A DNA stretch of 64,000 bases from the NCBI GenBank assembly GCA_023551395.1, contig GCA_023551395.1_3945.1, one strand, 5' to 3'. This stretch comes from a phage. Of the stretch, positions 16,572-64,000 are shown piece by piece (the first letter of the stretch is position 1; each line of letters opens with the position of its first letter). Below the pieces are notes generated by a model that worked only from the letters and a program-made list of their open reading frames with translations, was not told the DNA's origin and did no database searches. The position numbers and the translations under genes are program-made.

Positions 16572-17372
16572 ATGAATATCAATGTAGAAAAGATGCTTGA
16601 AGAGAAAGGTGTTGATGAAGCATTCTTAATCAATGCCGTAGAAAGCATGGCTATGATTCTTCGTGGTAATAACTACACAGAACAGTTTATGCCTGCAAGC
16701 TATAACTTGCCTGAAGACAAGTCTGATAACGGTGCTTTTGCAGAACAGGTTAATATGATGTTGACAGACACTACACTTGCTCTGGCATCTATTGCGGTTG
16801 GTGTTGATGCACTTGCTGAGTTCATTTTTTATGAAATGCAAAAGAATGACTATATCAGGATGTCAGACGAAGATAAGGAACTGTTGCTGACTAAGGACAC
16901 TGATTTCATTATTGATACGCTTATCTCATCAACGAGTGCTGTTATGGCTGTTCTTGAGAAGCGTATGGAAGAGAAACTTTCACGATATGAAAAACTTGAT
17001 TGGGGCGTAGAAGAATTAAACCCACGAATCAAAGAGATTATACAGCAAACTAAAGAGTCTTTGGAAGAAGCTGTTGAAAATGACTCTGTAGCTGATATAG
17101 AACCACTTCAGGTGAAAGTTGCACTGATGATTCCAGCTATCTCCACGATGATGAATATCGTTGCACTAATCCAACTTTCACAGATGATGGGTGTGAGTAT
17201 TGAGTTCATTGAGGAGATGACTGGTGGCGTTAGTATGCAAGCAATCAATGATGTTTTGGTGAACATTGGTGCTTCAATCATTGAAGAGAAACTACGCATT
17301 AACTTCGGTGATGATTTTGTGAAGCAAATCTCAGCTATGGCTGAAAAAGAGTCTGCTGAGCAAATGCACTAA
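16572..17372 (+). CDS. hypothetical acidic protein
   Basis: 266 aa ORF, translationally coupled to upstream gene. Confidence 0.5.
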   Translation: MNINVEKMLEEKGVDEAFLINAVESMAMILRGNNYTEQFMPASYNLPEDKSDNGAFAEQVNMMLTDTTLALASIAVGVDALAEFIFYEMQKNDYIRMSDEDKELLLTKDTDFIIDTLISSTSAVMAVLEKRMEEKLSRYEKLDWGVEELNPRIKEIIQQTKESLEEAVENDSVADIEPLQVKVALMIPAISTMMNIVALIQLSQMMGVSIEFIEEMTGGVSMQAINDVLVNIGASIIEEKLRINFGDDFVKQISAMAEKESAEQMH

Positions 17373-58363: not shown

Positions 58364-58828
58364 TTACTTTGGGTATACACTGTCAAGATAAATGTCAGCT
58401 TCCATTCTACGTCTGTTTTTCAGGCCGTTTGAAGTGACCTTCTGACCTTTGACTGTAACCTTGTTCCACCACTGCATAGCTTCTGCACAACCTACCTTAT
58501 TACCAGCGTTGTGGCGCTTGATAAATGTAGAGTCCTGCATAGCTGTGATACCAATGTTGTATGTTTCACTTACAAGTGCATCAAACTCGTTCTGAGAAGT
58601 TGGAACCTTGATGGCTTTGTTCACTGCTGCAACGAATTTCTCAACATCTGCAAGAAGATACTGTTCAGCTTGTTCAGCAGTAATCTTCATACCCATCTTA
58701 ACAGGCTTCCCACCAATACGAATTGTCCCATACCCAATTGTGGGGATTCCAGCAGAATCTTCGTAAGCCTCAAGCTTAAGACCTTCAAAGAACTTAATAG
58801 CTTCTAAACCTTTTCTTGAGAGTTGCAT
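58364..58828 (-). CDS. T4-type lysozyme (endolysin)
   Basis: N-terminal FEGLKLEAYEDSAGIPTIGYG matches the T4 lysozyme catalytic region (Glu, Asp, TIGxG). Confidence 0.8.
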   Translation of the reverse strand: MQLSRKGLEAIKFFEGLKLEAYEDSAGIPTIGYGTIRIGGKPVKMGMKITAEQAEQYLLADVEKFVAAVNKAIKVPTSQNEFDALVSETYNIGITAMQDSTFIKRHNAGNKVGCAEAMQWWNKVTVKGQKVTSNGLKNRRRMEADIYLDSVYPK

Positions 58829-59961
58829 TATGCCTCCCCTGCTGGGTTAACTGTAACTGTTGCTGCATTAGATGTTACAGAGCCACCTGCACCAGTAACT
58901 ACACAAGTGTAGCTTCCTGCATCAGCAGTGGTTGCACCTTCTTTGGTGTAAGTTGCAGCAGTTGCATCGAGGATGTCTTCCTCACCTTTCTTCCACTGGT
59001 AACCTGTTGCACCTGTTGCCACAACATTCAGTGTTAAAGTCTCACCTTCAGTGATTTCTTGATTGGTTGGCTGTTGAGTGATTACCGGAAGTGCGTTAAC
59101 AATAATCGTTGCAGGGCTAGAAGTGACAGAACCACCTGCACCTGTTACAACGCAAGCGTATGAACCTGCATCTGCTGGCAGAGCACCAGACTTGCTATAG
59201 GTAGCATTTGTCGCTGAAGGAATGTCAGAGCCATCTTTCTTCCATTGGTAACCGGTTGCACCAGTTGCAGTAACTGCTAAGTTGATGTTTCCACCTTCAT
59301 TAATAGTCTGGTTAGAAGGTTGCTTGGTAATCACAGGTAGTGCGTTCACAGTCACTGTTGCTGCATCTGAGGTAACACTTGTTCCACCCTCTCCAGATAC
59401 AACACAAGTGTATGAACCAGCGTCAGAAGGTGCTACTGACTGTTTTGTGTAAGTTGCAGAATTGGCACTAGGGATATCCTCACCATCCTTCTTCCACTGA
59501 TATCCAGTGGCGTTAGTTGCTAGAATGCTTAGAGTAAGTGTGCCACCCTCATTGACTGTTTGACCTGTTGGTTGCTGAGTAATTGCTGGTGGCTTAATAG
59601 CATCCTTCAACTTAGCATTCAACATTGAGAACGGCTTAACTCTTGCCAACCATTCACAATACACTGTGTCAATGTCTTTACCATTGATGATTGCATACTG
59701 TAAATCCATGAAGAAATCAGCAGTCCTCATCTGTGCACCAACACTGTAAAGGAGTTCATCACTAAAAGGAACTTTGTAGTCTGGTTTGTAGTCAAACTTC
59801 GCAACCTCTGCAATATCAGCTTCAGGCCAATATGAGCTATAGGTTAGCGGTAAAATAGCTTCTTGATATGTTCTAAAATCATATCTCTTACCAGCCTTTA
59901 CATTTGCAACGAAACCTTTTACAAATTCTTTGAAGTCTGGGTAAGTCTTTGCTTTAATCAT
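58828..59961 (-). CDS. protein with three tandem Ig-like repeats
   Basis: Three ~95 aa repeats each with TGYQWKK(D/G)xxDIxxAxxATY(T/S)K...ADAGSY(T/A)CVV(T/S)G; N-terminal domain is paralogous to 59958..60329. Confidence 0.6.
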   Translation of the reverse strand: MIKAKTYPDFKEFVKGFVANVKAGKRYDFRTYQEAILPLTYSSYWPEADIAEVAKFDYKPDYKVPFSDELLYSVGAQMRTADFFMDLQYAIINGKDIDTVYCEWLARVKPFSMLNAKLKDAIKPPAITQQPTGQTVNEGGTLTLSILATNATGYQWKKDGEDIPSANSATYTKQSVAPSDAGSYTCVVSGEGGTSVTSDAATVTVNALPVITKQPSNQTINEGGNINLAVTATGATGYQWKKDGSDIPSATNATYSKSGALPADAGSYACVVTGAGGSVTSSPATIIVNALPVITQQPTNQEITEGETLTLNVVATGATGYQWKKGEEDILDATAATYTKEGATTADAGSYTCVVTGAGGSVTSNAATVTVNPAGEA

Positions 59962-61586: not shown

Positions 61587-61958
61587 ATGAAAAACAGAAC
61601 AAACAAAGGCCAGTTTAAAAAAGGCCAATCTGGAAACCCATCTGGAAGACCAAAAGGCTCTCGCAACAAAAGCTCACTTGTAAAAGCTCAACTGACCATT
61701 GATAATTCTGCTGAGTTTGCTGCAAAGTTGTTTGAGGCGATTGTTACAAGGGACGCTGCTAAGCTTGCAGAGTTCGGGTTAAACACAGATGATGTAACCA
61801 TCAAGAGTATGATTGAGGTCGGTAAAACTATCTTTACTCACTCAGCAGGTGAGATGAAAGCACTTGCAGCAGACACTAAGAAGACTCCTGATAATGGTGG
61901 TCAACCACAGACAGATAACAAACCAACGTTCTCTGCTGTAGCGACTCTTAAAAAATAA
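61587..61958 (+). CDS. hypothetical protein with Gly/Pro/basic N-terminal motif
   Basis: N-terminal KGQFKKGQSGNPSGRPKGSRNK. Confidence 0.45.
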   Translation: MKNRTNKGQFKKGQSGNPSGRPKGSRNKSSLVKAQLTIDNSAEFAAKLFEAIVTRDAAKLAEFGLNTDDVTIKSMIEVGKTIFTHSAGEMKALAADTKKTPDNGGQPQTDNKPTFSAVATLKK

Positions 61959-62039
61959 TTTTAAAAGGTGTTGACAGACTCTATAAAGTTGCTCTAAAGT
62001 CTGTCACATCAAACAACAAATGAGAGAAGAGAGTAAAAT

Positions 62040-63455
62040 ATGAGCGAATTATTTAAACATGCGCACCTTCATGCAGGTCGAACTGAAAATGGTGCTGTAA
62101 ACCATACTTCATCAATGTCTGCTCTTGTAGACTTTTACAAAGCTGCTGGTTCTAGCCGTAGCAATGTAGAAATCTTACCAGACTTGTTCTACAAAGCTTT
62201 GCATGAGGATGTTGATGTTGCAGTTCGTATTTTACTGCATATGCGAGATGTACGAGAAGGTATGGGTGAGCGTAAAGCTTTCCGAACTGTTTTACTTCAA
62301 GCGATTGAAGATAAAGTTTTAGAGCCTACGCAGGTTCTTCGCATTATGGATAAGATTGCAGAGCTTGGTCGCTTTGATGACTTCAAAATCTTTGTAGGTA
62401 CTCGTTTCGAGACAGATGCCTTCAAACATTTAGAAGCAGCTTTACTAGACCCTGCAACAGCAGGTTTGGCGGCTAAGTGGTTACCACGAGTCAAACCACG
62501 TCATAAGCAGTTTGTAAAACGTTTCTGCAAGTTTGCAAACTTGAGTGAGAAAGAGTACCGCACACTGCTGTCTGCACTATCTGATACAGTTGAACAAAAA
62601 ATCTCTGCTAATGAGTTTGGTAATATTGACTACAGTAAGATTCCTTCACTTGCTGCTGCACGTTACCAAAAACTGTTTAACCGTAAAGATGGAGAGCGTT
62701 ACAAAGCTTACATCGAGTCCTTATCAAAAGGTGAGACTAAGATTAATGCTGGTGCTGTTTATCCATACGATGTGATTAAATCTCTCAAGTATGGTAATGC
62801 AGATGTTGCTAATGAGCAGTGGAAAGCACTACCAAACTGGATGGCAGAAGGTGAAAACATCCTATGTATGACTGATGTTTCAAGCTCAATGTCTTGGGTG
62901 AATTTTGGTTCAATCACTGCACTTGATATTGGTGTATCACTTGCCTTGTATGTAGCAGAACGCAATACAGGTTGCTTTAAGGATGAGTTGATGGTTTATT
63001 CAACAAACCCTCACTTCATCGAACTGAGTGGTGATTTACGAAACCGTCATCGTCAGGTGATGCGACACGTTGAATATGGCTCAACTAACTTACAAGCAGC
63101 TTTTGACCGCATTCTTGAGACAGGTAAAAGAAATAACTTGACTCAGAAAGATATGCCAAGTAAGCTTATCATCTTCTCCGATATGGAGTTCAATCAGGTT
63201 GATGGAGCTAACGGTCGTACAAACTTTGAAGCAATTCAGAGTAAGTACAAAAAAGCTGGATATGAGATGCCACAACTGGTATTCTGGTACTTAGCAAACC
63301 GTAATGGCACTTGCGAAGTATCTGTTAAGGATAACGGTGTAGCAATGGTATCTGGTTTCTCTCCAGCCACTTTAAAAGCTCTGCTTGGTGGTGAGAAGTT
63401 TGACCCAATTAGTGTAATGCTCAAAGCAGTAATGATTGACCGTTATATCTGGTAA
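62040..63455 (+). CDS. von Willebrand factor A (vWA) domain protein with helical N-terminal domain
   Basis: MIDAS-type DxSxS motif in ILCMTDVSSSMSW, later LIIFSDMEF; N-terminal ~250 aa helical. Confidence 0.5.
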   Translation: MSELFKHAHLHAGRTENGAVNHTSSMSALVDFYKAAGSSRSNVEILPDLFYKALHEDVDVAVRILLHMRDVREGMGERKAFRTVLLQAIEDKVLEPTQVLRIMDKIAELGRFDDFKIFVGTRFETDAFKHLEAALLDPATAGLAAKWLPRVKPRHKQFVKRFCKFANLSEKEYRTLLSALSDTVEQKISANEFGNIDYSKIPSLAAARYQKLFNRKDGERYKAYIESLSKGETKINAGAVYPYDVIKSLKYGNADVANEQWKALPNWMAEGENILCMTDVSSSMSWVNFGSITALDIGVSLALYVAERNTGCFKDELMVYSTNPHFIELSGDLRNRHRQVMRHVEYGSTNLQAAFDRILETGKRNNLTQKDMPSKLIIFSDMEFNQVDGANGRTNFEAIQSKYKKAGYEMPQLVFWYLANRNGTCEVSVKDNGVAMVSGFSPATLKALLGGEKFDPISVMLKAVMIDRYIW

Positions 63456-63473
63456 AAAGTTTTAAAAAGGGTA

Positions 63474-63502
63474 TTGACAATGTGTTTAATACCCTTTAAT
63501 AT
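63474..63502 (+). promoter_or_regulatory. sigma70 consensus-like promoter
   Basis: TTGACA - 17 nt - TAATAT. Confidence 0.6.
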
Positions 63503-63564
63503 GTTCTACATAGAAACGAAATGAGAGCTTTTCTAAGATACTGAAAAATATTTTAAAAAAGTTC

Positions 63565-63594
63565 TTGACAACCACTAAAAAATAATGTTAAAGT
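63565..63594 (+). promoter_or_regulatory. sigma70-like promoter upstream of tRNA cluster
   Basis: TTGACA then 17-18 nt then TTAAAGT about 25 nt before first tRNA. Confidence 0.45.
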
Positions 63595-63620
63595 GGTTAC
63601 ATAGAGTTTGAAAAGTTTAT

Positions 63621-63697
63621 CTCTGTTTAGCTCAGCTTGGTAGAGCGTTCCGTTTGGGGCGGTAAGGCCGGAGGTTCAAGTCCTCCAACAGAGACCA
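63621..63697 (+). tRNA. tRNA-Pro (anticodon UGG)
   Basis: Hand-folded cloverleaf: 7 bp acceptor CTCTGTT/AACAGAG, D-arm GCTCAGCTTGGTAGAGC, anticodon loop TTTGGGG, T-arm GGAGGTTCAAGTCCTCC, encoded CCA. One U-U mismatch in anticodon stem. Confidence 0.65.
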
Positions 63698-63704
63698 AAT
63701 TAAT

Positions 63705-63782
63705 GTTCCAGTAGACAAAACGGTAAAGTCACCACTCTTTCAAAGTGGATATTTGAGGGTTCAAATCCCTTCTGGAACGCCA
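63705..63782 (+). tRNA. tRNA-Glu (anticodon UUC)
   Basis: Acceptor GTTCCAG/CTGGAAC, perfect anticodon stem CCACT/AGTGG with loop CTTTCAA, T-loop TTCAAAT, encoded CCA. Confidence 0.6.
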
Positions 63783-63873
63783 GTTTTGACAGAAGACCAA
63801 TTACAGCAAACTTAATCTTATTCATCTGAAGGTAAATCGGACAAAGAAGAGATTTGGTCTGGTCATTAAGAAT

Positions 63874-63950
63874 TGCGGGTATAGAGAAAGGGCGTCTCAC
63901 ATGTCTCATTAGCATGGTATCGGCAGGTTCGACTCCTGCACCCGCCTCCA
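63874..63950 (+). tRNA. tRNA with CAU anticodon (Met or Ile2)
   Basis: T-arm GCAGGTTCGACTCCTGC, anticodon stem CATGT/GCATG with loop CTCATTA, encoded CCA; unpaired 1-72 position and one extra nt before the D-stem. Confidence 0.45.
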
Positions 63951-64000
63951 ATTTTGCAGAAGACCGTTTACAGCAACAAAATACTTTTTGCGGATAAAAG

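What the first reader, a model, noticed from the sequence alone, without database searches (positions are those of the whole stretch)
62040..63960. vWA-domain protein next to a tRNA cluster with conserved trailers
ORF 62040..63455 has a helical N-terminal domain and a C-terminal vWA domain with a MIDAS-type DxSxS motif (DVSSSM). That layout resembles Ro60-family RNA-binding proteins, which pair with structured tRNA-like RNAs. Immediately downstream are three tRNA genes and a ~70 nt segment between the second and third (63790-63865) that can form a stem (GACCAA...TTGGTC) but is not a tRNA. Two tRNAs are followed by a near-identical trailer (TTTTG(A)CAGAAGACC..TTACAGCAA). The Ro60 link is speculative.
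Basis: partly seen in the sequence, partly recalled or inferred. Interest (0 to 1): 0.5.

Follow-up and report, generated by a model that had tools for sequence, protein, structure and literature searches.

The report
Phage Ro60-like protein with Y-like RNAs
This Felix O1-type E. coli phage encodes a ring-shaped, Ro60-like RNA-binding protein, and the odd non-tRNA stretches in the adjacent tRNA cluster belong to a conserved small-RNA family that sits beside this protein's gene in very diverse phages, which points to an undescribed branch of the Ro60/Y-RNA system.

Summary

**RNA.** The 91-nt gap 63783-63873 is not a tRNA. The two "trailers" are the 5' halves of two copies of one element: outer helix, AGA bulge, 7-bp stem, UU-ACAGCAA, a variable apical part, the 3' stem, then G. 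The second copy is cut by the window end.

**Distribution.**
- Felix O1-like genomes carry four copies in the first kb of the tRNA array.
- The fourth copy holds a circularly permuted tRNA-like module, as in bacterial YrlA.
- The same element lies next to DUF2828 genes on the same strand in two independent sets of about 80 loci each. It is also present in Listeria, Campylobacter and Mycobacterium phages, with free covariation in the stem and whether or not tRNAs are nearby.
- A model trained only on distant phages picks 63790-63864 as the best window hit (E 1.7e-4).

**Status.** No Rfam family matches, and no paper I could search describes it. Binding and function are inferred, not shown. Verdict: a new variant of the Ro60-Y RNA kind.

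The parts
61971..62000 (+). sigma-70-like promoter upstream of the Ro60-like gene
   Evidence: TTGACA-18-TAAAGT, 10 of 12 matches. The equivalent site is annotated as a promoter in MZ726792. This is a consensus match only.
62040..63455 (+). Ro60-like protein gene (DUF2828 + DUF7788), 471 aa
62040..62834 (+). N-terminal all-helical domain (about residues 1-265), TROVE/HEAT-ring-like
62847..63452 (+). C-terminal vWA domain with complete MIDAS (DxSxS at 62874-62888, T349, D381)
63474..63502 (+). promoter-like site after the gene
   Evidence: TTGACA-17-TAATAT, 10 of 12 matches.
63565..63594 (+). promoter-like site in front of the tRNA/Y-like RNA array
   Evidence: TTGACA-18-TAAAGT with TG, 10 of 12 matches.
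63621..63697 (+). tRNA-Pro (UGG), CCA encoded
   Evidence: ARAGORN. Rfam tRNA model 57.7 bits.
63705..63782 (+). tRNA-Glu (UUC), CCA encoded
   Evidence: ARAGORN. Rfam tRNA model 60.6 bits.
63783..63873 (+). Y-like RNA element E1 (short class). Sub-parts: outer helix 63787-63790/63862-63865; AGA bulge 63791-63793; conserved stem 63794-63800/63854-63860; UU 63801-63802; ACAGCAA 63803-63809; apical hairpins 63810-63853; unpaired G 63861.
   Evidence: MFE and centroid folds. RNAalifold on 6 orthologues keeps all 11 basal pairs, with G-U changes that fit only the + strand RNA, and shows compensatory changes in the apical stems. It is the only perfect element in the window. Model R2, trained on distant phages only, hits 63790-63864 at 28.9 bits, E 1.7e-4, the best hit in the window. 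E1 is conserved in 234 phage records.
63874..63950 (+). tRNA-Met (CAU), atypical, lying between E1 and E2
   Evidence: ARAGORN and tRNAscan-SE in MZ726792 both call it. The Rfam tRNA model does not reach E<=1. An orthologue is present in Yersinia phage P778.
63951..64000 (+). 5' half of Y-like RNA element E2, cut by the window end. Sub-parts: outer helix strand 63954-63957; AGA 63958-63960; stem strand AGACCGT 63961-63967; UU; ACAGCAA 63970-63976.
   Evidence: Sequence. In orthologous genomes the partner ACGGTCT-G-GCAA/GTAA follows 31-37 nt after the motif. R1 and R2 give partial hits.

Best explanation
**What it is.** ORF 62040-63455 encodes a divergent phage member of the Ro60 kind: a TROVE-like helical ring fused to a vWA/MIDAS domain (Pfam DUF2828+DUF7788). 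The non-tRNA segments that follow tRNA-Glu and tRNA-Met are genes for its small-RNA partners, the functional analogues of Y RNAs.

**RNA anatomy.** Each RNA closes its 5' and 3' ends into a conserved helix (5'-A-AGRNUNN ... NNANYCU-G-3'). In Felix-like phages this helix is extended by an AGA bulge and a covarying outer helix. The nearly invariant single-stranded N-U-WCAGCAA follows directly after the 5' strand. The apex is variable: a plain hairpin in the short class (E1-E3, like YrlB), or a permuted tRNA-like module with variable arm, T arm, closed acceptor stem and D arm in the long class (E4, like YrlA).

**Inferred mechanism.**
- In Felix O1-like phages the RNAs are transcribed with the tRNA operon from promoters at 63474 and 63565.
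- They are released by the tRNA-processing machinery. RNase P cutting at the 5' end of the next tRNA makes their 3' end, and 3' processing of the preceding tRNA makes their 5' end.
- The protein binds the basal helix plus the CAGCAA module, as Ro60 binds the conserved Y-RNA helix mainly through its 5' strand.
- The variable apex recruits or gates another factor, such as a host exoribonuclease like PNPase or a tRNA-handling or repair enzyme.
- The resulting RNP then acts on structured RNAs, most plausibly tRNAs, during infection.

**Shown here.** The protein fold, the RNA structure and its covariation, and the genetic linkage.

**Not shown.** Binding, processing and the downstream function are all inferred.
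For: **Protein.**
- Pfam DUF2828/DUF7788.
- The AF2 model is confident.
- The Foldseek top 10 are all Ro60/TROVE over the full length, E 1e-8 to 1e-6.
- The MIDAS residues are invariant.
- Cluster L mycobacteriophage homologues (33% identity) are annotated 'Ro-like RNA binding protein'.

**RNA family.**
- The motif occurs 4 times in the array against 0.03 expected.
- The folds agree with one another, and the outer helices covary among paralogues: UGAC/GUCA, UUGC/GCAA, UUAC/GUAA, GAGC/GCUC.

**Linkage, test not circular.**
- In 78 non-redundant IMG/VR loci, WCAGCAA sites within 1 kb of the gene number 122 on the gene strand and 27 on the other strand.
- 70 of the 122 have a perfect 7-bp Watson-Crick partner within 230 nt, against 1 of the 27 on the other strand. 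None of the 57 sites inside the gene has one. Chance is about 1.3%.
- An independent set of 80 bacterial and MAG contigs replicates this: 86 of 166 on the gene strand against 1 of 19 on the other.
- 25 of 46 loci without any tRNA within 6 kb still carry the element, so it goes with the gene and not with tRNAs.
- Six of the 7 stem pairs use 3-5 pair types.
- The element is present beside the gene in Mycobacterium phage Rumpelstiltskin, Listeria phage LMTA-34 and Campylobacter phage CPX.

**Model-based detection.**
- Model R2, trained only on distant phages, finds E1 in the window at E 1.7e-4.
- In a complete 88.5-kb Felixounavirus genome it hits only the array copies at E<=0.005.

**Long class.**
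- After circular permutation, ARAGORN calls the long elements tRNAs with an 'intron' at the anticodon loop, and that intron is the conserved stem plus ACAGCAA.
- The acceptor-like stem covaries completely between Felix-like phages, Moogle and Sf13.
- The order V-T-AS-D matches YrlA.

**Precedent.** Y RNAs are encoded within 4 kb of Ro60 on the same strand in bacteria and 22 phages. Phage phiLo Ro60 binds two adjacent Y-like RNAs and, together with them, forms complexes with host PNPase in gel-shift assays.
Against: - No sequence-level similarity to TROVE/Ro60 was detectable: no Pfam TROVE hit at E<=0.1 and no PDB hit by phmmer or by profile.
- The conserved RNA motif WCAGCAA is not the known Ro-binding motif (GNCGAAN0-1G in bacteria, GGUCCGA in vertebrates). 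Recognition may therefore differ, or the RNA may have another partner.
- About 20 of 78 loci show no element within 1.5 kb, even with relaxed rules.
- No expression, processing or binding data exist for these RNAs.
- No RNA ligase or RtcB is annotated in the Felix-like genome. Only a polynucleotide kinase, a phosphatase and a DNA ligase are annotated.
- No protein neighbour is shared widely; the best cluster is in 17 of 80 loci. The downstream function is therefore weakly constrained.
Confidence: 0.72

Rival explanations
1. The elements are cis-regulatory structures of the DUF2828 mRNA or operon, such as autoregulatory leader or trailer sites, attenuators or stabilisers. On this view they are not free-standing small RNAs that form an RNP.
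For: In many loci the copies lie within 20-400 nt upstream of the start codon or just after the stop codon, on the gene strand. Examples are the Listeria and Campylobacter phages and most bacterial contigs. That layout is also how RNA leaders bound by their own gene product look.
Against: - In Felix-like phages the copies are separated from the gene by two promoter-like sites and two tRNAs, and each is flanked by tRNAs, so it would be excised from the precursor.
- There are 2-5 tandem copies with different apical modules.
- One class carries a complete tRNA-like module, as in the free-standing YrlA.
- Genuine Y RNAs are also encoded directly upstream or downstream of Ro60 genes.
Confidence: 0.12
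2. The RNA family is real and linked to the gene, but the protein is not its direct binding partner. On this view the RNAs work with another factor, for instance as tRNA mimics or decoys for host tRNA-targeting nucleases or tRNA enzymes. The DUF2828 protein acts on another ligand through its vWA/MIDAS site.
For: The conserved motif differs from known Ro-binding motifs. The role of the Ro60 MIDAS is unknown even in canonical Ro60. The long class looks like a tRNA.
Against: Gene and RNA are co-located and co-oriented across phages of Proteobacteria, Firmicutes, Actinobacteria, Campylobacterota and others, with no other shared neighbour. This is the pattern expected for direct partners. The short class has no tRNA features but keeps the conserved module.
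Confidence: 0.1
3. The segments are spacers of the tRNA operon, either processing signals or decayed tRNA genes, and have no relation to the upstream protein.
For: They sit between tRNAs, begin 4-5 nt after an encoded CCA and end just before the next tRNA. One copy contains T-arm and D-arm sequences, and tRNAscan-SE even mis-called part of it as a 129-nt tRNA-Thr.
Against: - The same element occurs beside the gene in 25 of 46 loci that have no tRNA within 6 kb.
- The stem, the CAGCAA motif and the 3' G are conserved across phyla.
- There is no tRNA or Rfam match for E1.
- The tRNA-like copy has a closed acceptor stem and its parts in permuted order, so it is not a decayed tRNA.
Confidence: 0.04
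4. The repeats are DNA-level elements, such as recombination or homing-endonuclease target sites or miniature mobile repeats, and not RNAs.
For: They are multi-copy within a region where HNH endonuclease genes come and go, for example between tRNA-Pro and tRNA-Glu in phage Meda.
Against: - The strand bias is strong: 70 of 122 on the gene strand against 1 of 27 on the other.
- G-U pairs are tolerated only on the + strand transcript.
- Compensatory changes keep pairing while the sequence drifts.
- The position next to one gene family is fixed across unrelated phages.
Confidence: 0.02

Closest known systems
Bacterial Ro60 (Rsr) with YrlA/YrlB Y RNAs (Salmonella Typhimurium, M. smegmatis; Chen et al. 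2014, PMC4201824; Wang et al. 2018, bioRxiv 10.1101/312249)
   Same: - The protein is a ring-shaped TROVE domain plus a vWA/MIDAS domain.
- One or more small RNAs are encoded within a few kb on the same strand.
- The RNA's 5' and 3' ends pair into a basal helix, with a conserved motif at the 5' strand.
- One RNA class has a tRNA-like module in the order V, T, closed acceptor stem, D. A shorter class (YrlB) lacks it.
   Different: - The protein is undetectable as TROVE by sequence; Pfam files it under DUF2828/DUF7788.
- The conserved RNA motif is N-U-WCAGCAA placed after the stem, not GNCGAAN0-1G.
- There are up to four or five copies.
- In Felix-like phages the RNAs are embedded in a tRNA operon, not in an rsr-rtcBA operon.
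- The host is a virulent phage.
Thermus phage phiLo Ro60 with Yrl1/Yrl2 (PMC12135203; PDB 9KOP, 9L5Y)
   Different: phiLo Ro60 is a canonical TROVE-domain protein, and its RNAs carry the CGAA motif. It shares only 14-17% identity with the window protein in structural alignments. No tRNA array is involved.
Mycobacteriophage (e.g. ET08) and other phage TROVE proteins with YrlA-like RNAs (22 phages in Chen et al. 2014)
   Same: It sets the precedent that phages carry Ro60 together with tRNA-like Y RNAs.
   Different: Those phages were chosen because GenBank annotated a TROVE domain. The DUF2828 clade found here covers 710 phage records, including cluster L mycobacteriophages. It is a different, larger branch with its own RNA consensus.
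Vertebrate Ro60 with Y RNAs (PDB 1YVP)
   Different: It shares 12-13% identity. The helix sequence is different (GGUCCGA). Y RNAs are Pol III transcripts with La-binding tails.

Membership tests
Pfam DUF2828 / DUF7788 protein family | Scores above the gathering thresholds of both models | tested here: met
   DUF7788 scores 148.1 bits (cut-off 27.1) and DUF2828 scores 102.4 bits (cut-off 29). PHROG 850 covers the full length at 1.2e-183.
Ro60 / TROVE family | Sequence match to the TROVE domain or to solved Ro60 proteins | tested here: not met
   There is no Pfam TROVE hit at E<=0.1. phmmer and a 40-sequence profile against the PDB give no Ro60 hit at E<=10. NCBIfam gives no hit.
Ro60 / TROVE family | Fold: N-terminal helical (HEAT-like) ring domain followed by a vWA domain | tested here: met
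Ro60 / TROVE family | MIDAS motif in the vWA domain (DxSxS, T, D) | tested here: met
   D279, S281, S283, T349 and D381 are invariant in 40 homologues.
Ro60 / TROVE family | Physically binds Y RNA on the ring surface and misfolded RNA ends in the cavity | not testable with these tools
   This needs RIP/CLIP, EMSA or a structure.
Y RNA / YrlA-YrlB family | Encoded within about 4 kb of the Ro60-type gene on the same strand | tested here: met
   E1 starts 328 nt after the stop codon, on the + strand. The same holds in 53 of 78 IMG/VR loci (element within 1 kb) and in 46 of 80 bacterial contigs.
Y RNA / YrlA-YrlB family | Basal helix formed by the 5' and 3' ends, supported by covariation | tested here: met
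   See the folds, the pair types, the enrichment of perfect partners and the outer-helix covariation among paralogues.
Y RNA / YrlA-YrlB family | Conserved Ro-binding motif GNCGAAN0-1G (bacteria) or GGUCCGA (animals) in the 5' strand | tested here: not met
   The conserved motif is N-U-WCAGCAA after the 5' strand. CGAA occurs only in a non-conserved apical loop of some E1 alleles.
Y RNA / YrlA-YrlB family | tRNA-like effector module (V, T, closed AS, D), which defines YrlA | tested here: met
   This is met for the long class: E4 at L001 9926-10075 (outside the window), Moogle E4 and the Rumpelstiltskin copy 2. It is not present in E1, which is of the short, YrlB-like class.
tRNA | Cloverleaf recognised by tRNA finders, for the segment 63783-63873 | tested here: not met
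   There is no ARAGORN call and no Rfam tRNA hit at E<=1.
Any Rfam 15 family | Covariance-model match to E1-E4 or to the Listeria, Campylobacter or Mycobacterium phage copies | tested here: not met
   cmscan at E<=1 finds nothing on these elements.

The most novel reading that the evidence does not exclude
The DUF2828 proteins, found in hundreds of phage genera (2,549 homologues detected; 710 phage records), together with the stem-plus-WCAGCAA RNAs, form a previously undescribed and very widespread branch of the Ro60-Y RNA system. This branch has its own RNA recognition code. In tRNA-rich virulent phages such as Felix O1, the RNP would be made from the tRNA operon itself. It would act as a phage tRNA surveillance or repair device, or as a nuclease-tethering device that counters host tRNA-targeting defences.
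Probability: 0.3. Interest if true: 0.85.

Novelty: new variant of a known kind. Interest (0 to 1): 0.68.

Why it matters
- **Open question.** Ro60 and Y RNAs are conserved from bacteria to humans, and Ro60 is a major lupus and Sjogren autoantigen. Their function in bacteria and phages is still poorly understood.
- **Wider reach.** A sequence-divergent Ro60-like clade, so far filed as DUF2828, 'vWFA protein' or a generic 'RNA-binding protein', has its own conserved partner RNA family across phages of many phyla. That would greatly enlarge the known reach of the system.
- **Tractable model.** Felix O1-type phages of E. coli and Salmonella are a genetically tractable virulent-phage model. They carry four Y-like RNAs, one of them a tRNA mimic.
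- **Annotation.** The finding explains unannotated gaps and a mis-called 129-nt 'tRNA-Thr' in Felixounavirus tRNA arrays.
- **Testable motif.** The short invariant WCAGCAA next to a covarying helix is a directly testable recognition element.
- **Possible link.** The result may connect phage tRNA arrays with RNA quality control or anti-defence.

Tried and rejected
- **Sequence-level link to Ro60.** Pfam, NCBIfam, and phmmer and profile searches against the PDB gave nothing. Only fold comparison shows the relationship.
- **Rfam.** No family covers the elements in the window, the Felix array, or the Mycobacterium, Listeria and Campylobacter phage loci.
- **Model R1.** This covariance model was built from trimmed pseudo-sequences (5' part joined to 3' part). 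It could not span the real 30-200 nt interiors and picked false nearby partners, so I abandoned it. It was replaced by R2, built from full short-class elements of distant phages.
- **Window hit at 17029-17066.** It scores E about 0.15 but lies inside a 266-aa ORF and needs two G-U pairs and a 7-nt interior. I judged it chance.
- **Shared protein neighbours.** Clustering 1,160 neighbouring ORFs gave no cluster in more than 17 of 80 loci. The members I read looked like generic phage genes such as ClpP-like, DnaJ-like and RNase HII-like, by eye and not scanned. The DUF5681 neighbour is confined to the Felix-like lineage.
- **RNA repair genes in a Felix-like genome.** Only a polynucleotide kinase, a phosphatase and a DNA ligase are annotated. 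There is no RtcB or RNA ligase.
- **Relaxed motif search.** In the 25 IMG/VR loci without an element, it recovered only a few more.
- **Literature.** Searches for DUF2828, YrlA, Ro60 with phage, and Felixounavirus found no description of these RNAs. Four reviews or analyses could not be read, and the supplementary phage table of Chen et al. 2014 is not held. Prior description therefore cannot be fully excluded.
- **Caveat.** The 100% pairing in that count is by construction, because the elements were selected for pairing. I use it only for pair-type diversity.
Full report
**Source of the window.** The region 61500-64000 matches 253 phage records by megablast. Nearly all are Felix O1-like myoviruses of Escherichia, Salmonella, Shigella and Citrobacter. 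The best match is Enterobacteria phage XTG1 at 99.0%. In these genomes the ORF sits immediately upstream of a roughly 5-kb array of about 25 tRNA genes, all on the same strand. The window ends inside the start of that array.

**Check of the observation.**
- ORF 62040-63455 (+, 471 aa) is present.
- ARAGORN finds tRNA-Pro 63621-63697, tRNA-Glu 63705-63782 and tRNA-Met 63874-63950. The Rfam tRNA model confirms the first two only.
- Neither tool calls anything in the 91-nt gap 63783-63873.
AGACCAA (63794-63800) pairs with TTGGTCT (63854-63860). It is flanked by an outer helix TGAC/GTCA (63787-63790/63862-63865), with an AGA bulge on the 5' side and a single G on the 3' side.
- The two 'trailers' are at 63783-63809 and 63951-63976.

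**The protein.**
- Pfam assigns DUF2828 to the N-terminal part and DUF7788 to residues 275-455. PHROG 850, labelled 'RNA-binding protein', covers the full length. NCBIfam has no model.
- Neither the single sequence nor a 40-sequence profile matches any PDB sequence. Pfam TROVE is not hit.
- An AlphaFold2 model built on 40 homologues at 43-89% identity is confident, with pLDDT 89.3 and pTM 0.89. It has an all-helical N-terminal half and an alpha/beta C-terminal domain.
- The ten best Foldseek matches in the PDB are all Ro60/TROVE structures aligned over the whole length, E 1e-8 to 1.5e-6. They include Xenopus and human Ro60, D. radiodurans Rsr and the Ro60 of Thermus phage phiLo. vWA-only proteins follow from E 1e-3.
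- The MIDAS residues D279, S281, S283, T349 and D381 are invariant. So is a basic signature in the helical domain: R69-D-x-R-x-G-x-G-E-R78, R40, R111 and K146-W147.
The protein is Ro60-like at fold level and unrecognisable as such by sequence.
- The family is large. 2,549 proteins were detected. 710 phage records hold a homologue, including phages of Vibrio, Aeromonas, Campylobacter, Listeria, Staphylococcus, Enterococcus, Bacillus and cyanobacteria. It also includes cluster L mycobacteriophages, where the gene is annotated 'Ro-like RNA binding protein'.

**The RNA elements in Felix-like phages.**
- In the orthologous array (L001 = MZ726792), CAGAAGACC-NN-T(T/A)(A/T)CAGCAA occurs four times against 0.03 expected.
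- Each copy is followed 31-103 nt later by the exact complement of its own stem. AGACCAA pairs with TTGGTCT, and AGACCGT pairs with ACGGTCT.
- All four fold the same way: a 4-bp outer helix, an AGA bulge, a 7-bp stem, an internal loop that begins UU-ACAGCAA, and an apical hairpin.
- The outer helix differs between paralogues and alleles but always pairs: UGAC/GUCA, UUGC/GCAA or UUAC/GUAA, GAGC/GCUC or GAGC/GUUC, and UUAC/GUAA.
- Substitutions within the stem among Felixounavirus and Mooglevirus genomes are G-U-compatible only on the + strand RNA: AGGCCAA, AGACCGA, AGACTGT. The apical hairpins of E1 show compensatory changes such as AUUUC/GAAAU against UUUUC/GAAAA.
- E1 is conserved in 234 phage records at 77-100% identity.
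- The window holds E1 in full and only the first 50 nt of E2.

**The fourth copy.** E4 (L001 9926-10075) lies outside the window.
- Between the conserved stem halves it carries a hairpin, a T arm (GAAGGUUCGAUUCCUUC), a 7-bp stem closed by a 4-nt loop (ACUCGGC-AGAU-GUCGAGU) and a D arm (GGUGUAAUGGUAGCAC).
- That closed stem changes completely but stays complementary in Moogle (ACCCUUC/GAAGGGU) and Sf13 (ACACG/CGUGU).
- I opened the closed stem and joined the basal stem. ARAGORN then called Felix E4, Moogle E4 and the middle copy of Mycobacterium phage Rumpelstiltskin as tRNAs. Each had an 'intron' at the anticodon loop, and that intron is the conserved stem plus ACAGCAA.
- The order variable arm, T arm, closed acceptor stem, D arm, with the protein-binding stem in place of the anticodon arm, is the published architecture of YrlA. 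YrlA is the tRNA-like Y RNA bound by bacterial Ro60.
- In MZ726792, tRNAscan-SE mis-called part of E3-E4 as a 129-nt tRNA-Thr.

**Linkage to the protein family.**
- *First data set.* I fetched 80 IMG/VR loci encoding DUF2828 relatives, most at 39-48% identity to the window protein. I scanned them for WCAGCAA preceded by a 7-nt segment whose complement lies within 230 nt downstream.
- *Non-circular count, 78 non-redundant loci.* On the gene strand there are 77 motif sites within 1 kb downstream and 45 within 1 kb upstream. Of these, 44 and 26 have a perfect Watson-Crick 7-bp partner. On the opposite strand the numbers are 17 and 10 sites with 0 and 1 partners. Inside the gene there are 57 sites with none. 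Chance expectation is about 1.3%.
- *Consensus.* 5'-A-[A G R N U N N]-N U-W C A G C A A ... [N N A N Y C U]-G. The second pair is always G:C in the 80-element alignment A2 and nearly so among all 99 elements. Pair 3 switches between G:C and A:U, and the remaining pairs use 3-5 pair types each.
- *Size classes.* Interiors of about 30-45 nt hold a plain hairpin, or in one lineage repeated AGCAA motifs. Interiors of about 65-110 nt often contain a T-loop motif (17 of 99 elements).
- *Relation to tRNAs.* 53 of 78 loci have an element within 1 kb. This includes 25 of the 46 loci with no tRNA within 6 kb, so the element travels with the gene and not with tRNAs. Where tRNAs are present (32 loci, 279 tRNAs), all are on the gene strand.
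- *Replication.* In 80 contigs from bacterial genomes and MAGs, 86 of 166 gene-strand sites near the gene have a perfect partner, against 1 of 19 on the other strand.
- *Named phages.* The element is present beside the gene in Yersinia phage P778 (three copies in its tRNA array; stems GGACUGU/ACAGUCC and others). It is also in Mycobacterium phage Rumpelstiltskin (three copies downstream), Listeria phage LMTA-34 (three upstream) and Campylobacter phage CPX (two upstream).
- *Model-based test.* A covariance model built only from short-class elements of distant phages, with no Felix-like, Moogle or Yersinia sequences, finds 63790-63864 as the best hit in the window at 28.9 bits, E 1.7e-4. It also finds the untrained Campylobacter copies. 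In a complete 88.5-kb Felixounavirus genome, its only hits at E<=0.005 are E1-E3 in the array, on the gene strand.

**How it most likely works.**

*Shown:*
- the protein has a Ro60-like predicted fold;
- a structured RNA family with strong covariation exists;
- gene and RNA are linked on the same strand across very distant phages.

*Inferred:*
- The protein binds the basal helix plus the CAGCAA module. This would parallel Ro60, which binds the conserved Y-RNA helix mainly through its 5' strand.
- The variable apex, a hairpin or a tRNA mimic, recruits or gates another factor.
- In Felix-like phages the RNAs are transcribed from the promoter-like sites at 63474 and 63565 as part of the tRNA precursor. 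Each element starts 4-5 nt after an encoded CCA and ends about 8-10 nt before the next tRNA. RNase P and tRNA 3'-end processing would therefore release it.

*Weakly supported function:*
- Known Ro60-Y RNA complexes tether PNPase for degradation of structured RNA. Phage phiLo Ro60 and its Y-like RNAs form complexes with host PNPase in gel-shift assays.
- In Salmonella, rsr and yrlA are in the RtcB RNA-repair operon.
- Here the frequent tRNA neighbourhood suggests a role in tRNA surveillance, repair or turnover. An RtcB gene lies 1.3 kb downstream in the Listeria phage, and a polynucleotide kinase is encoded in the Felix-like genome. No protein neighbour is widely shared.

**Comparison with what is known.**
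- Chen et al. 2014 found YrlA-like RNAs near proteins annotated as TROVE in 254 bacteria and 22 phages, for example mycobacteriophage ET08. The motif there is GNCGAAN0-1G.
- The 2025 phiLo study added a canonical phage Ro60 with two CGAA-containing Y-like RNAs.
- A jumbo-phage survey mentions TROVE proteins 'with a tRNA-like partner' in a small subset of phages.
- The system here has the same design but differs in several respects:
  - the protein clade is filed as DUF2828;
  - the conserved RNA motif is different;
  - the RNAs are multi-copy;
  - in Felix-like phages they are embedded in the tRNA operon.
- No Rfam 15 family matches, and no paper I could search mentions these RNAs, or Ro60 in connection with Felix O1-like phages.
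- Some reviews and one supplementary table could not be read. Prior description cannot be wholly excluded.

**Verdict.**
- The finding is best filed as a new variant of the Ro60-Y RNA kind.
- It works like a Ro60-Y RNA module, but it fails the sequence-level membership tests for TROVE and for the canonical Y-RNA motif.
- Direct binding, processing and biological role remain to be tested.

Noticed in passing
L003 5382-6130 (Citrobacter phage Moogle); L001 10389-10694 (about 1.4-1.7 kb beyond the window end): ARAGORN calls a permuted tmRNA with tag peptide ANDNVFLAVA** inside the tRNA array. Rfam gives sub-threshold tmRNA_permuted (29.2 bits) and tmRNA hits at the orthologous place in L001. The reading frame GCAAACGACAATGTTTTTCTGGCAGTAGCTTGATAG is visible in L001. 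This is a possible phage-encoded tmRNA-like RNA.
   Followed up: no
window 63874-63950: The tRNA-Met(CAU) between E1 and E2 is atypical. ARAGORN and tRNAscan-SE call it, but the Rfam tRNA model does not reach E<=1. Its D arm is unusual (GAGA-AAGGGCG-UCUC). With ARAGORN's borders, the first acceptor pair is a U-C mismatch before an encoded UCCA end. It is conserved in Yersinia phage P778.
   Followed up: partly
L001 9884-10012 (MZ726792 27251-27379): The annotated 129-nt 'tRNA-Thr-GGT' spans the 3' part of E3 and the T arm and acceptor strand of E4. It appears to be a tRNAscan-SE artefact caused by the permuted tRNA-like module.
   Followed up: partly
L085 1428-1979 and 5808-7019 (Listeria phage LMTA-34): A ROOL RNA match (88.5 bits, just under the gathering score of 99.1) lies 1 kb upstream of the Ro60-like gene. 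An RtcB 'tRNA splicing ligase' and an HD phosphohydrolase lie 0.6-1.3 kb downstream.
   Followed up: no
L017 7418-7470, L018 7418-7473, L028 7407-7460, L074 5845-5895: In one lineage of short elements the interior is not an obvious hairpin. It carries two further AGCAA repeats: ACAGCAA...AAGCAA...UAGCAA. These may be extra copies of the recognition motif.
   Followed up: no
window 61587-61958: The upstream neighbour is a 123-aa DUF5681 protein with a very basic N-terminus (GNPSGRPKG). It is conserved next to the Ro60-like gene only in the Felix-like lineage: L001, Yersinia phage P778 and L009.
   Followed up: partly
L089 1068-1424 (Salmonella phage Meda): An HNH endonuclease gene is annotated after tRNA-Pro, and no tRNA-Glu is annotated there. 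Array content therefore varies between close relatives. A mid-array gap of about 570 nt in L001 contains an unannotated tRNA-like hit at L001 10696-10774 (31.7 bits).
   Followed up: no
window 58828-59961 (- strand): A 377-aa 'tail protein' carries three tandem Ig-like repeats of about 90 aa (GATGYQWKK...AGSY.CVV), next to the endolysin at 58364-58828.
   Followed up: no
window 17029-17066 (+): Both RNA models give a weak match here (about 17 bits, E about 0.15). It lies inside a 266-aa ORF and needs G-U pairs and a 7-nt interior. I judged it chance.
   Followed up: yes
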